From an uncultured delta proteobacterium (GTDB lineage Bacteria; Desulfobacterota; Binatia; DP-6): DNA of 64,000 bases. Below are positions 43,603 to 46,394 of this stretch, piece by piece. The stretch covers positions 384,001 to 448,000 of the forward strand of contig CAWFFN010000009.1 in the NCBI GenBank assembly GCA_963815115.1, in the 5' to 3' direction. How positions within the stretch are numbered: position 1 is the stretch's first letter; every line of letters starts with the position of its first letter. The translations under genes and the position numbers were made by a program. The notes under the pieces are model-generated. The model had not been told where the DNA came from, did not search any database, and saw nothing but the letters and a program-made list of their open reading frames with translations.

Positions 43603-44118
43603 ATGACACGGATCGTGCTGCCGCTCCTCGTCGTCCTGCTGGCGGTGGGCGCGGGCACCGCAGCACTGTCCCAGCACCCGTGGTCGCCCCGGCGCGACGT
43701 CGTGCAGCCCGTGCCGTTCAGCCACCGCGTGCATGCGGGCGAGAACCAGATCCCCTGCCAGTACTGTCACGAGTACGCGCGCCGTTCGCAGACCGCCGGC
43801 GTGCCTCCGATTCAGCGCTGCGTCGGCTGCCACGCGCACGAGGGGCGGGGCGGTTCGCTCGAGGCCGTGACCCAGCCGTGGAGCGACACGCGACAGCCAG
43901 CGTCCGAGATCGTCTGGAACCGCGTGTACACCCTCCCCGACTTCGTGCGCTTCGCGCACCGTCCCCACGTGCTTGCCGGCGTGGAGTGCCAGACCTGCCA
44001 CGGGCCCGTCGAGACGATGGACCGCGTGGTGCCGGTCCACGACATCAACATGGGGTTCTGCATCACCTGCCACACCGAGCGCGGGGTCACGAAGGACTGC
44101 TCGGTGTGCCACTACTAG
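43603..44118 (+). CDS. Pentaheme cytochrome c (ActA/QrcA-like)
   Basis: Five CxxCH motifs, plus 'QPVPFSHRVHAG', 'WNRVYTLPDFVRFAH', 'NMGFCITCH'. Confidence 0.88.
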   Translation: MTRIVLPLLVVLLAVGAGTAALSQHPWSPRRDVVQPVPFSHRVHAGENQIPCQYCHEYARRSQTAGVPPIQRCVGCHAHEGRGGSLEAVTQPWSDTRQPASEIVWNRVYTLPDFVRFAHRPHVLAGVECQTCHGPVETMDRVVPVHDINMGFCITCHTERGVTKDCSVCHY

Positions 44119-44603
44119 GAAGCTCTACGCCGCATGCTTGATGTCGACCTCACAGCCGAGATCGCGCAGCCGCCGCACGAGGCGGCCGATGGTCTTGGCT
44201 GTGTCGCGGCGCGCGCAGCGAGCCGCGCCGAGGTCGCGGTACGGTACGGCGTCGCGGAGCATGTAGTAGCACGCGCCGAGCATGGAGGCCGCAACGGCGA
44301 GGATGGCTCTCCTGGCGCCGCGGCGGGCTTTGAGGCGCAGGAATTGCGCCTGGAGATAGCAGTCCTTCGTGCGGACGGCGGCCCAGGCGGCGGTGACGAG
44401 GGCATCGCGACATGCGTGCAGCCGTGCGCCGTGAGCCAGTCGGCCAGGGCGAGCAGGCGGGTGGTAGCCGTCGCGAAACTCCGGACCTCGTGATGACGCG
44501 GCTCGGACATGCAGCGCACCGCTGTGACGACGGTGTCCTTGTGCACGTCGAGTCCTGCGCACCGCGGATGCAAGATGTCCATCGCGTCCCTCCTTGCCGC
44601 GGC
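44112..44603 (-). mobile_element. Internally deleted IS110-family element
   Basis: 'CAGLDVHKD...GCTHVAM' joined directly to 'LVTAAWAAVR..YLQAQFLRLK..RG..AI.AVA'. Its right end CCTAGTAG resembles CTTGGTAG of the intact copy. Confidence 0.85.
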
Positions 44604-44692
44604 TGATAGGCACGACGAAGGGCCTTTTGCCGCGGAGGCTTACAGAACGCCCCATCCCGGACCTTCGCCGCATTTTCGCCCGCTCCGTAACA
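44604..44692. repeat. 89-bp TG..CA element, copy 2
   Basis: Direct repeat of 32565-32653 with one mismatch. Confidence 0.85.
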
Positions 44693-44694
44693 AG

Positions 44695-44905
44695 TTCCCA
44701 CCGACCCCGGGGGTCGACCCGCGATGGAGGAAACTGGTACGGCGCCGCTGCCGGCACCGAGGTCGAGCAATGTCTGGTGCGCGAAGCCCGCTAACAAGTT
44801 GGACCCGACGTCCCGTGCGCACCCGTGATTGTCGCCACGGACCGCGCGGTCCGCGAGCACGCTTGGTAGACTGCTGCCCCCAGGGACGTCACGCCGGCAG
44901 AACGG
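44695..44905 (+). ncRNA. Putative IS110 bridge RNA
   Basis: Structured 5' non-coding end containing TAACAAGTT (44792-44800, equal to the left junction) and CTTGGTAGAC (44862-44871, equal to the right junction). Boundaries approximate. Confidence 0.7.
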
Positions 44906-44917
44906 GAGGACGTGACG

Positions 44918-46144
44918 ATGGAGGTCATCCATGCCCAGTGCGCGGGGCTCGACGTACACAAGCAGACCGTGGTGGCCTGCGTGCGGATCACGGGCGCGGG
45001 GGGCGTGCGGCGCGAGGTGCGGACGTTTGCGACGACCGCCGCCGAGCTGCTGGCCTTGCAGGAGTGGCTGGTGGCCGCCGGCTGCACCCATGCCGTGCTG
45101 GAGTCGACGGGCGTCTACTGGAAACCCGTGTGGCACGTGCTCGAGGACCACCTGACCCTCGTGCTGGCCAACGCGACGGCGGTGCGCAATCTGCCCGGGC
45201 GCAAGAGCGACGTGAGCGACGCGCAGTGGCTCGCGGATCTGCTCGCCCATGGGCTGGTGCGCGGCAGCTTCGTGCCGCCCGCGCCGATTCAGGCGTTGCG
45301 CGAGCTGACGCGGACGCGCAAGCAGCTCGGGCGGGAGGTCACCGCCCACAGTCAGCGGATCGAGAAGGTGCTGGAGAGCGCGGACGTGAAGCTCGCCGCG
45401 GTGCTCCGCCCGCTGCTCGGCGTCAGCGGGCGGGCGATCATCGCGGCCCTGGCGGCGGGCGAAACCGATCCCGAGCGCCTCGTGGCGTTAGCCCACCCGC
45501 GGCTGCGGCCGAAGCGGGCCGCGCTGCGGGCCGCGCTGCCCGGGCACGTCCGGCCGCATCATCGCGTCTTGCTGGGTCAGCACCTGCGGGTGGTCGAGAC
45601 GCTGCGGGCGACGATCGCGGAGCTGGATGCCGCGATCGGGGCCGCCGTCGCCCCGTATCGCGCCGCCGTCGACCACCTCGTGACGATGCCCGGCGTGAGC
45701 ACGACGGCGGCGCAGATCCTGGTCGCGGAGATCGGCACGGACATGAGCCGCTTCCCCAGCGCGGGGCATCTCGTCTCCTGGGCGGGGCTGTGTCCGCGCC
45801 AGGACGCGAGTGCGGGCAAGCACCGCTCCACGCGCCTCCGCAAGGGGGCGCCGTGGCTCAAGCCCGTGCTCATTCAGGGCGCGTGGGCAGCGGTGCGAGG
45901 CCGCGAGGGCTACCTCCGCACCCAGTTCCTGCGCCTCAAGCATCGCCGCGGTCCGATGAAGGCCATCGTCGCGGTGGCCGCCTCCATGCTCACCGCCGCC
46001 TATTACATGCTGCGCGACGACCAAGACTATCACGACCTCGGGGCCGCCCACTTCCAGCGCGGCGACCACAACCACCTCGTCGCCGGACTCACCCGCCGCC
46101 TCCACCACCTCGGTTACGAGGTCACGCTCCGCCCCGCCGCCTGA
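44918..46144 (+). CDS. IS110 DEDD recombinase/transposase
   Basis: 'GLDVHK', 'LESTG', 'KSDVSDA', 'EIG.D..RF', 'SAGK'. GGAGG RBS. Confidence 0.95.
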   Translation: MEVIHAQCAGLDVHKQTVVACVRITGAGGVRREVRTFATTAAELLALQEWLVAAGCTHAVLESTGVYWKPVWHVLEDHLTLVLANATAVRNLPGRKSDVSDAQWLADLLAHGLVRGSFVPPAPIQALRELTRTRKQLGREVTAHSQRIEKVLESADVKLAAVLRPLLGVSGRAIIAALAAGETDPERLVALAHPRLRPKRAALRAALPGHVRPHHRVLLGQHLRVVETLRATIAELDAAIGAAVAPYRAAVDHLVTMPGVSTTAAQILVAEIGTDMSRFPSAGHLVSWAGLCPRQDASAGKHRSTRLRKGAPWLKPVLIQGAWAAVRGREGYLRTQFLRLKHRRGPMKAIVAVAASMLTAAYYMLRDDQDYHDLGAAHFQRGDHNHLVAGLTRRLHHLGYEVTLRPAA

Positions 46145-46173
46145 CGCCGCGTACCGAGCGAGTTACTTGGTAG

Positions 46174-46394
46174 ACGGCGGGCGGGTCGCGGTGATGCGGC
46201 AGCGGCTGCGGCGCGGCGGGTGGCGGAGTCGCTATCGCTTGCGGAAGGGGACCGTAGAGCCGGTGTTGGGGATCGTGAAACACGTGCGCGGCTTCCGCCA
46301 ATTCCTCCTGCGCGGCGCGGCGAAGGTCGCCGGCGAGTGGAGCCTGGTCACCACGGCGCACAACCTGCACAAGCTGGCGGCCGCATGGGCCTGA
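46174..46394 (+). pseudogene. IS1182-family transposase C-terminal fragment
   Basis: 'YRLRKGTVEPVLGIVK..RGFRQFLLRG..KV.GEW.L...AHNL.KL'. Confidence 0.8.

What the first reader, a model, noticed from the sequence alone, without database searches (positions are those of the whole stretch)
44688..46177. IS110 whose 5' non-coding RNA contains exact copies of both of its own insertion junctions (bridge RNA readable from sequence)
Seen: the left junction TAACA-AG-TT (44688-96) recurs at 44792-44800. The right junction CTTGGT-AG-AC (46166-75) recurs at 44862-71. The first copy lies in a loop closed by GGTGCGC/GCGCACC. CCGT (44813-16, reverse complement of right-target ACGG) and GGGA (44883-86, near reverse complement of TTCC) follow the two copies. 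Known: IS110 bridge RNAs carry target- and donor-binding loops, a 2-nt core and handshake bases. Inference: target TAACA-AG-ACGG, donor CTTGGT-AG-TTCC, core AG on the transposase strand. The 2-nt extensions match the recombination products (handshake-like), and the guide order appears mirrored relative to IS621. An intact DEDD enzyme makes this a candidate new programmable recombinase.
Basis: partly seen in the sequence, partly recalled or inferred. Interest (0 to 1): 0.72.

Follow-up and report, generated by a model that had tools for sequence, protein, structure and literature searches.

The report
IS110 insertion sequence with readable bridge RNA
This is an intact insertion sequence of the IS110 family whose upstream non-coding RNA carries short guide segments that match its own insertion site and its own ends. 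It is a well-supported new member of the known RNA-guided "bridge recombinase" class, not a new kind of system.

Summary
Both exact repeats exist at the stated coordinates and exceed chance. The element is 44695-46173 (1479 bp): a 217-nt non-coding left end, an intact DEDD/Ser recombinase gene and a 29-nt right end, with AG at both junctions.

Across 32 homologous families, the RNA segment aligned with TAACA-AG always copies that family's own left flank. The segment aligned with CTTGGT-AG copies its own right end. So these are a left-target guide and a left-donor guide.

The TT after the first guide covaries with the first bases of the element, which is handshake-like. The AC after the second guide does not covary.

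They sit at or inside a strongly covarying RNA helix (44807-13 with 44884-90). A right-target guide lies 5' of the left-target guide, at about 44770-75. This supports the "mirrored" order relative to IS621. That order is reported for IS1111-type seekRNAs, and AG ends for ISPpu9.

All four genomic copies sit at the 3' end of a 93-nt dispersed repeat (44602-44694). The repeat may travel with the element.

Verdict: new member of a known kind; moderate interest.

The parts
44602..44694 (+). 93-nt dispersed repeat unit (starts GCTGATAGG, ends CCGTAACAAG). Its last 7 nt supply the left target arm plus core. It contains the inverted repeat GCGGAGG-N24-CCTTCGC.
   Evidence: nhmmer finds 18 strong copies in two genome regions: 4 linked to the element and 14 solo. 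Diverged copies occur in same-genus genomes.
44693..44694 (+). Left copy of the AG core dinucleotide.
   Evidence: AG precedes the element start in all 32 families.
44695..46173 (+). The IS110-family element (1479 bp), with the right AG core at 46172-73.
   Evidence: Boundaries come from homologous multi-copy families, from fragment C8:54100-54333, from same-genus homologues L100 and L101, and from a right-end-to-left-end junction in a metagenome contig.
44695..44911 (+). Left-end non-coding region that encodes the bridge RNA.
   Evidence: Conserved scaffold with hypervariable guide segments in 33 aligned sequences.
44748..44755 (+). Helix H1, 5' strand. It pairs with 44893-44900 and encloses both guide loops.
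   Evidence: 7 of 8 pairs show changes on both sides; 83.7% of cells are paired.
44761..44764 (+). Helix H2, 5' strand (GGTC). It pairs with GACC at 44802-05 and is the proposed outer stem of the target-binding loop.
   Evidence: 98.5% of cells are paired; the helix is mostly invariant, with one compensatory change.
44765..44775 (+). 5' side of the target loop. The right-target guide is about 44770-75 (TGTCT), complementary to AG plus the first 2-3 right-flank bases.
   Evidence: Own-site complementarity scored 118 against 98.2 +/- 4.8 in permutations, reached in 1 of 3000. Anchored per-position matches were 19, 17, 15 and 12 of 32, against 10.1, 8.3, 8.7 and 7.3 expected.
44775..44790 (+). 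Proposed inner hairpin of the target loop (TGGTGC / GCCCG).
   Evidence: RNAalifold pairs; one pair changes on both sides in 2 related sequences. This is weak support.
44792..44798 (+). Left-target guide TAACA plus AG, with the same sense as the left flank.
   Evidence: Identity to flank positions -5 to -1 is 0.87-1.0 in 30 sequences. The guide-to-flank match is 7 nt in 24 of 32 families.
44799..44800 (+). Handshake-like extension TT, equal to the first two bases of the element.
   Evidence: Equals element base +1 in 29 of 32 families and +2 in 32 of 32. It equals the right flank in only 5 of 32 at each position.
44807..44813 (+). Helix H4, 5' strand (GACGTCC). It pairs with GGACGTC at 44884-90 and is the proposed outer stem of the donor-binding loop.
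   Evidence: 100% of cells are paired; 5 of 7 pairs change on both sides, in 11, 7, 2, 13 and 2 sequences.
44838..44853 (+). Hairpin CGGACC-GCGC-GGTCCG, the proposed inner hairpin of the donor loop.
   Evidence: All 6 pairs show changes on both sides, but only 71-80% of cells are paired because the alignment is gappy there.
44862..44869 (+). Left-donor guide CTTGGT plus AG, with the same sense as the right end. It is followed by an invariant A at 44870.
   Evidence: The match to each family's own right end is 6-8 nt in 32 of 32 families. Identity to end positions -4 to -2 is 1.0.
44912..46144 (+). Recombinase gene (410 aa).
   Evidence: PF01548 at 1.2e-24 and PF02371 at 1.8e-21. NF033542 scores 257.8 bits against a cut-off of 140. 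A family profile hits the IS621 recombinase 8wt6 at 7.6e-16. D14, E64, D100, D103 and S300 are invariant in 26 homologues.
46166..46173 (+). Right end: left-donor arm CTTGGT plus the AG core.
   Evidence: The same end is followed by eight different flanks in this genome.
44115..44582 (-). Remnant of a different IS110-family recombinase gene. Its own left end was replaced from 44602 onward.
   Evidence: N- and C-terminal pieces only. A contig of run X2 continues beyond 44603 with a donor-loop-like sequence of the same RNA family.
46174..46394 (+). Right flank: C-terminal fragment of a DDE transposase.
   Evidence: PF13751 at 1.6e-12.

Best explanation
Positions 44695-46173 are an intact IS110-family insertion sequence. 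Its 217-nt left end encodes a bridge RNA with two guide-bearing internal loops enclosed by a common stem.

In the target loop (about 44761-44805), a short 5' segment ending in CT (about 44770-75) can pair with the transposase-sense strand at the AG core and the first 2-4 right-flank bases. A 3' segment (44792-98, TAACA-AG) has the sense of the left flank, so it pairs with the opposite strand. Two further bases (TT) match the element's own first bases, that is, the recombination product.

In the donor loop (about 44807-44890), the 3' segment CTTGGT-AG matches the element's right end.

By homology with IS621, the DEDD/Ser recombinase would use this RNA to recombine a circular right-end-to-left-end junction (CTTGGT-AG-TTCC) with sites reading TAACA-AG.

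Read on the opposite strand, the core is CT and the layout equals IS621's arm-core / arm-core-handshake arrangement. So the recombination site is inverted relative to the RNA and gene.

What is shown: the boundaries, guide covariation for three of the four guides, intact catalytic residues, and the helices.

What is inferred: transcription, circle formation, strand order and activity.
For: - The exact repeats are real and non-random.
- There are four full copies in the genome. Three are identical over 44602-46173.
- In G000, 5 of 5 left junctions read TCCGTAACA-AG.
- The same-genus homologue L101 has flank TAACG-AG and guide TAACG-AG, a matched change.
- In 32 of the 34 sequences examined, the boundaries could be set from the guides. 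The left-flank match is 7 nt in 24, 8 nt in 3, 6 nt in 3 and 5 nt in 2. The right-end match is 8 nt in 12, 7 nt in 9 and 6 nt in 11. Mutual-information analysis ranks these guide-to-DNA pairs highest.
- The extension equals the element start in 29 of 32 (+1) and 32 of 32 (+2) families.
- The right-target guide is supported by permutation: 1 of 3000, and 0 of 5000 on the anchored total.
- The proposed structure pairs in 90.4% of cells. 19 of 30 pairs change on both sides, and 0 of 500 shuffles reach this.
- Protein family and catalytic residues are as expected.
- A contig of run X2, from a relative about 90% identical, joins the right end to the left end through CTTGGT-AG-TTCCCACC.
Against: - No right-donor guide was found. 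Permutation tests of the 3' halves against the element start are null or negative: 840 of 2000 (target-loop 3' region) and 1930 of 2000 (donor-loop 3' region) permutations reached the observed value.
- Right flanks of the eight right junctions in this genome are diverse: AC, GC, AA, CT, TC, AA, CC, AG. Right-side recognition is therefore weak.
- The outer target stem H2 and the inner hairpin are nearly invariant, so the exact loop topology is not proven.
- No promoter-like site was found in 44450-46300, and no Rfam family matched.
- No RNA data were laid.
- The junction contig cannot tell a circle from a tandem pair, and it comes from a relative, not from this genome.
- All four copies carry the same 93-nt unit on the left, so the unit that last moved in this genome may be longer than 1479 bp.
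Confidence: 0.9

Rival explanations
1. The unit that actually transposed in this genome is the 1572-bp composite 44602-46173 (93-nt repeat plus element), in the modular manner of ISPpu9-ssr9. On this reading the junction at 44694/44695 is internal, a relic of one ancestral insertion. This is compatible with the bridge-RNA reading of the guides.
For: - All 4 full copies share 44602-46173, with unrelated DNA on both sides. Copies 1-3 are identical across unit plus element.
- Among units ending in TAACAAG, 4 of 5 of the near-identical subfamily are occupied, against 0 of 6 of the second subfamily, although their last ~30 nt are the same.
- One copy is followed directly by another unit, giving the junction CTTGGT-AG-CTGATAGG.
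- Unit left junctions read RG|C(T/C)GATAGG, a core-like dinucleotide.
- ISPpu9 forms circles of the element alone, of element plus module and of module alone, all at AG dinucleotides (PMC12288879, section 15 read).
Against: - The left flanks of the composite (GCCGC, CTGTG, GCACT, CTCGT) do not resemble the target guide.
- The unit's left end does not resemble the element's left end.
- Homologues in two same-genus genomes and the fragment on C8 share only 11-22 nt of unit-like sequence.
- The other families start at AG|TT with no unit.
- At copy 3 the right flank is a methylase gene cut at the element end, and its other half is absent from the genome. Flanks have therefore been rearranged and empty sites could not be recovered.
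Confidence: 0.35
2. The layout is IS621-like and not mirrored: a loop closed by GGTGCGC/GCGCACC, a left-target guide on the 5' side, CCGT as right-target guide and GGGA as right-donor guide.
For: GGTGC/GCACC pairs in 98.8% of cells. CCGT is complementary to the ACGG flank of this one copy.
Against: - That stem has no compensatory change and crosses helix H2.
- The local hairpin it needs (GGAC/GTCC) pairs in only 81.8% of cells, has 0 compensatory changes and is no better than shuffles, 470 of 500.
- CCGT and GGGA abut or lie in the covarying helix 44807-13/44884-90.
- ACGG is not shared by the other insertions.
- The 3' halves show no own-site complementarity: 103 of 2000 at best.
Confidence: 0.06
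3. The repeats are chance, or leftovers of duplication at insertion, and have no RNA-guide role.
For: The single-sequence fold is no more stable than shuffles: z = 0.91, and 162 of 200 shuffles fold as well. No Rfam family matches.
Against: 0 of 100 shuffles reproduce either repeat. The same two RNA positions track flank and end in 32 families with different sequences.
Confidence: 0.02

Closest known systems
IS621 bridge recombinase and bridge RNA (E. coli; PMC11208160, PMC11208158, PMC13626964; passages read)
   Same: - DEDD RuvC-like domain plus Tnp domain with a catalytic Ser; a family profile hits 8wt6 at E = 7.6e-16.
- RNA encoded in the left end, with two internal loops, one for the target and one for the donor.
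- Guides include the 2-nt core.
- A 2-nt handshake follows one guide and matches the product.
   Different: - The core reads AG on the transposase strand, against CT in IS621.
- The same-sense guide with the handshake is on the 3' side of the loop, and the complementary guide is on the 5' side. IS621 has the reverse.
- The left arm is 5 nt, against 7 nt in IS621.
- No right-donor guide was found.
- The protein is 410 aa, against 326 aa.
ISPpu9 / ISPpu10 of Pseudomonas putida (PMC12288879, sections and passages read; bioRxiv 10.64898/2026.03.19.712850, abstract and section 6 read)
   Same: - AG dinucleotide at both ends.
- Insertion into a dispersed intergenic repeat.
- A palindrome close to the left end.
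- ISPpu9 has an adjacent small module with solo copies elsewhere and modular circles.
[quoted passage not shown]
   Different: - The module here is 93 nt and lies on the left of the element. ssr9 lies downstream of the gene.
- The unit's ends do not resemble the element's ends, so there is no A'/B' box equivalent.
- Relatedness of the proteins was not tested here.
IS1111-type seekRNAs (ISEc11, ISPa11, ISKpn4; PMC11187229, passages read)
   Same: The segment complementary to the top strand precedes the segment that matches the bottom strand.
   Different: Here the RNA lies upstream of the gene, the IS110-type location. The left end is 217 nt and the right end 29 nt. Only a 5-8 bp sub-terminal inverted repeat is seen (GAAAC / GTTTC).

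Membership tests
IS110 family RNA-guided (bridge) recombinase element | DEDD RuvC-like N-terminal domain | tested here: met
   PF01548 at E = 1.2e-24, residues 11-156. D14, E64, D100 and D103 are invariant in 26 homologues. The E and D-x-x-D motifs align with those of IS621. D14 itself lies outside the printed alignment.
IS110 family RNA-guided (bridge) recombinase element | C-terminal Tnp domain with a catalytic serine | tested here: met
   PF02371 at E = 1.8e-21. S300 is invariant and aligns with the serine of IS621's Y-E-S-G motif in 8wt6. Equating that serine with S241 rests on my own count, which assumes a 2-residue tag offset.
IS110 family RNA-guided (bridge) recombinase element | Curated family model score | tested here: met
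   NF033542 'IS110 family RNA-guided transposase' scores 257.8 bits against a cut-off of 140.
IS110 family RNA-guided (bridge) recombinase element | No terminal inverted repeats; the same 2-nt core at both junctions | tested here: met
   AG lies at 44693-94 and 46172-73, and at both junctions in 32 of 32 families.
IS110 family RNA-guided (bridge) recombinase element | Non-coding end RNA whose loop segments covary with the target and with the donor ends | tested here: met
   Left-target and left-donor guides covary. The right-target guide is supported by permutation. A right-donor guide was not found.
IS110 family RNA-guided (bridge) recombinase element | Circular intermediate with abutted ends | tested here: inconclusive
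   One contig of run X2 (a relative about 90% identical, depth 2) joins the right end to the left end via CTTGGT-AG-TTCCCACC. A tandem pair would look the same.
IS110 family RNA-guided (bridge) recombinase element | RNA expressed and recombination RNA-dependent | not testable with these tools
   Only Logan contigs were available, the single read-laying run went to DNA runs, and there is no assay.
IS110 group (as opposed to the IS1111 group) | Long left end carrying the RNA and a short right end | tested here: met
   The left end is 217 nt and the right end 29 nt. The family's left ends range 212-283 nt, median 231.
IS1111 group | RNA in a long right end; sub-terminal inverted repeats of 7-17 bp | tested here: not met
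   The right end is 29 nt. The longest end-to-end inverted repeat is 5-6 bp in 27 of 32 families; the recurring one is GAAAC/GTTTC.
IS621-like guide layout | Same-sense (left) guide on the 5' side of each loop; complementary guide plus handshake on the 3' side | tested here: not met
   The complementary right-target guide is at about 44770-75. It lies 5' of the same-sense guide plus extension at 44792-800.

The most novel reading that the evidence does not exclude
The element belongs to a subfamily with a left-end-encoded bridge RNA whose whole recombination site is inverted relative to IS621: CT core on the antisense strand, complementary guide first, same-sense guide plus handshake second. 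In this genome it also travels as a module with a 93-nt hairpin-bearing repeat, and the 3' end of that repeat is the element's own preferred landing site. On this reading the repeat would be a non-autonomous satellite that both rides with the recombinase and seeds new targets for it.
Probability: 0.3. Interest if true: 0.6.

Novelty: new member of a known kind. Interest (0 to 1): 0.4.

Why it matters
It shows that a bridge RNA's guides can be read straight from one genomic copy and then confirmed by comparison. It adds a well-delimited, apparently intact recombinase/RNA pair from a high-GC soil bacterium, with short guides (5+2 and 6+2 nt) and the opposite strand layout to IS621. That layout, and the constant association with a small repeat, bear on two open questions: how IS110 elements choose strands, and how they pick up neighbouring DNA. 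As an editing tool it is one candidate among thousands and is untested.

Tried and rejected
- Single-sequence folds of the left end and of the 93-nt unit (both strands) were no better than shuffles. This is uninformative at 70% GC.
- Rfam gave only two weak, sub-threshold matches (E 2.2-5.6, far below gathering score) inside the recombinase gene.
- The promoter and terminator scan found nothing.
- phmmer of the single protein against PDB found nothing. A 26-sequence profile did.
- Guides in the 3' halves of the loops were sought and not found.
- A right-donor guide was sought by eye in 44814-44834 and was not convincing.
- Empty sites were sought for copies 2, 3 and 4 in 4 same-genus genomes, and for copy 3 also in 26 further relatives. 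None was recovered. At copy 3, the missing half of the interrupted methylase gene is absent from the genome.
- A Tn3-type inverted repeat, an IS200/IS605 end and a bridge-RNA fragment were considered as identities for the 93-nt unit. These rested on recall or on inspection by eye and had no supporting result.
- The depth and coverage tables of read laying are contigs only and say nothing about expression.
- The contig of run X1 that joins 46172 to 44602 is explained by the tandem locus at copy 4, so it is not evidence for a composite circle.
- Supplementary files of the papers were not seen. Durrant et al.'s Supplementary Data and Extended Data Fig. 10c may already show this subfamily's layout.
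- No search was made that would justify saying this subfamily is not in print.
Full report
**1. Observation**

The 9-mer TAACAAGTT lies at 44688-96 and 44792-800. The 10-mer CTTGGTAGAC lies at 44862-71 and 46166-75. Neither occurs elsewhere in the 64-kb window. No dinucleotide-preserving shuffle (0 of 100 each) gave two matches.

**2. The gene**

The ORF 44912-46144 (410 aa) carries PF01548 (DEDD_Tnp_IS110) and PF02371. It scores 257.8 bits on NF033542, 'IS110 family RNA-guided transposase', against a cut-off of 140.

A single-sequence search of PDB found nothing. A profile of 26 homologues hit the IS621 recombinase (8wt6, E = 7.6e-16) and ISCro4 (9t56, E = 1.9e-12).

D14, E64, D100, D103 and S300 are invariant in the 26 sequences. 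The E, D-x-x-D and Ser motifs align with those of IS621.

**3. Boundaries and copies**

The window is C9:384001-448000 of a 6.89-Mb genome with 70.4% GC. The genome holds four full copies and five fragments. Copies 1-3 are identical over 44602-46173. Copy 4 has 8 one-base deletions and 2 substitutions.

All four copies share sequence from 44602, not from 44695. However, 44602-44694 is a separate 93-nt repeat. nhmmer finds 18 strong copies, 9 in C5:1.376-1.419 Mb and 9 in C9:318-429 kb. Four are linked to the element and 14 are solo, with unrelated DNA on both sides. Diverged copies occur in same-genus genomes.

Four lines of evidence put the element's true left end at 44695.
- A 93%-identical left-end fragment on C8 shares only TCCGTAACAAG with the unit.
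- Same-genus homologues L100 and L101 share only about 12-22 nt of the unit.
- In three unrelated multi-copy families, similarity between copies starts exactly at AG|TT... and stops at ...AG|.
- A contig of run X2, from a relative about 90% identical, joins the right end to the left end through CTTGGT-AG-TTCCCACC. A tandem pair would look the same as a circle.

**4. Guides**

The search for related loci returned the best 80 of 391 relatives, giving 78 loci. These formed 29 clusters. One representative per cluster, four loci with short upstream sequence, and the window made 34 sequences. L074 (no scaffold) and L094 (no match) were dropped, leaving 32.

The RNA scaffold is conserved and two short segments are hypervariable. 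The first follows GAGCCCG and copies that family's own left flank plus AG. The match is 7 nt in 24 families, 8 nt in 3, 6 nt in 3 and 5 nt in 2. The second follows GAGCACG and copies the family's own right end plus AG. The match is 8 nt in 12 families, 7 nt in 9 and 6 nt in 11.

Mutual information ranks these pairs highest. For example, identity is 1.0 for 44794-96 against flank positions -3 to -1, and for 44864-66 against end positions -4 to -2 (30 sequences).

In L101 the flank and the guide both read TAACG instead of TAACA. In G000, all 5 left junctions read TCCGTAACA-AG.

**5. Extensions**

The two bases after the first guide equal the element's first two bases in 29 of 32 (+1) and 32 of 32 (+2) families. 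Five families have non-TT pairs that match fully: TG, TC, TG, CG and GT. The same two bases equal the right flank in only 5 of 32 at each position. This is handshake-like, because it matches the product.

After the second guide the A is invariant. The right flank starts with A in 13 of 32 families. The next base matches the flank in 10 of 32, which is chance level. The AC of the window copy is therefore not a covarying handshake.

**6. The other halves of the loops**

Segment 44807-13 pairs with 44884-90 in 100% of cells. Both-sided changes occur in 5 of 7 pairs, in 11, 7, 2, 13 and 2 sequences. The window's GACGTCC/GGACGTC is a compensated version of the consensus GGAGTCC/GGACTCC.

The local hairpin GGAC/GTCC is not supported: 81.8% of cells are paired, there are no compensatory changes, and 470 of 500 shuffles do as well. 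The 3' halves of the loops show no own-site complementarity.

Instead, the variable segment between GGTC and GGTGC (44765-75) is complementary to the family's own AG-plus-right-flank. It scored 118 against 98.2 +/- 4.8 in permutations, reached in 1 of 3000. When anchored on its last C (opposite the core G), Watson-Crick matches to flank positions +1 to +4 are 19, 17, 15 and 12 of 32. The expected values are 10.1, 8.3, 8.7 and 7.3 (p = 0.0002, 0.001, 0.007, 0.02). The total is 76 against 51.7 +/- 5.6, reached in 0 of 5000 permutations.

For the window, TGTCT predicts a right flank of A-C-(A/G). Among the eight right junctions in G000, 4 start with A and 4 have C second.

Right-flank consensuses of families P and D agree, by eye, with their own segments as printed.

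No right-donor guide was found.

**7. Architecture**

The nested model has four parts.
- H1: 44748-55 with 44893-900.
- Target loop: outer stem H2 (44761-64 with 44802-05), an inner hairpin, the complementary guide on the 5' side and the same-sense guide plus extension on the 3' side.
- Donor loop: outer stem H4, an inner hairpin at 44838-53 and the same-sense guide on the 3' side.

The model pairs in 90.4% of cells. 19 of 30 pairs change on both sides, and 0 of 500 shuffles reach this.

H2 and the inner target hairpin are almost invariant. They show one compensatory change, and one pair changed in 2 related sequences, respectively. The alternative stem GGTGC/GCACC pairs in 98.8% of cells, has no compensatory change and would be a pseudoknot across H2. 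It cannot be excluded.

**8. Comparison with what is known**

In IS621, the left guides lie on the 5' side of each loop and pair with the bottom strand. The right guides lie on the 3' side, followed by 2-nt handshake guides that pair with the non-cognate DNA after top-strand exchange (PMC11208160, PMC11208158 and PMC13626964; passages read).

Here the order is reversed and the core reads AG. Read on the opposite strand, the core is CT and the layout is the IS621 one.

This is not unprecedented.
- IS1111-type seekRNAs have the top-strand complement first (PMC11187229, passages read).
- ISPpu9 has AG at both ends (PMC12288879, section 15 and passages read).
- ISPpu10 guides are described as pairing with the reverse strands (bioRxiv 10.64898/2026.03.19.712850, section 6 read).

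What I did not see described is this order in an RNA that is plainly left-end-encoded. I made no search that would show it is absent from print, and figures and supplements were not visible.

**9. The 93-nt unit**

The genome has 29 TAACAAG sites. Five are the guide copies inside elements. Of the other 24, 11 are unit ends (4 occupied), one is the occupied site on C8, and 12 are other sites, none occupied.

All 5 occupied sites are preceded by TCCG. Among the 24 non-guide sites, 12 have this prefix and 5 of those are occupied; none of the 12 without it is occupied (my hypergeometric estimate, about 0.02).

Occupied units all belong to the near-identical subfamily: 4 of 5 units ending in TAACAAG, against 0 of 6 in the second subfamily (my estimate, about 0.015). 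Copies 1-3 are identical across unit plus element.

This fits movement of unit plus element as a module, as shown for ISPpu9 and its ssr9 module (PMC12288879). Half-match boundary shifts in IS110 elements are also reported (bioRxiv 10.64898/2026.08.14.744561 and 10.64898/2026.08.31.748434, abstracts read).

Against this, the composite's outer left flanks do not resemble the target guide. No empty site could be recovered. I leave the question open at about one in three.

**10. Limits**

Only contigs were available, not reads. No RNA evidence was obtained. Only 32 families were analysed.

**Verdict**

The core interpretation is supported, with corrected guide positions. This is a new member of a known kind and of moderate interest.

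Noticed in passing
window 44115-44582 (-): Remnant of a second IS110-family recombinase gene (N- and C-terminal pieces only). Its own RNA-bearing left end is cut off at 44602. A contig of run X2 continues there with a donor-loop-like sequence of the same RNA family.
   Followed up: partly
window 46174-46394 (+): C-terminal fragment of a DDE transposase (PF13751), directly right of the element. No other copy was found in the genome by blastn.
   Followed up: partly
G000 C9:354250-355226 (locus L003): A type I restriction-modification methylase-like gene (it carries an NPPYG motif; the name rests on my recall). It is cut exactly at the right end of element copy 3. Its C-terminal ~320 codons, present in G012 and G025, are absent from this genome.
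   Followed up: yes
loci L023, L065, L066, L077, L083; L031, L034, L039, L048, L075: Related elements are often inserted exactly at the right end of another family member (left flank GTTTC-N5-AG) or lie head-to-tail with one (right flank equals a left end). They therefore form tandem or nested arrays in long-read genomes.
   Followed up: partly
window about 44729-44735 and 46158-46164; same places in homologues: A short sub-terminal inverted repeat: GAAAC about 31-36 nt inside the left end, against GTTTC 6 nt before the right end. There are matched variants (GAAGCT/AGCTTC, GAAATG/CATTTC, AATGAAAC/GTTTCATT). In the window copy the match is imperfect (GAAAC against GTTAC).
   Followed up: partly
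G000 C5:1376330-1419081 and C9:318221-428695: The 93-nt units are confined to two regions of about 43 kb and 110 kb. These regions also hold several IS110-family genes and fragments, and look like mobile-element-rich islands.
   Followed up: no
32 families, left flank position -6: Position -6 of the left flank, just outside the guide match, is C in about 20 of 29 flanks, counted by eye. It is often part of TC or TTC, as at the same position of the donor's right end. This hints at recognition beyond the guide.
   Followed up: no
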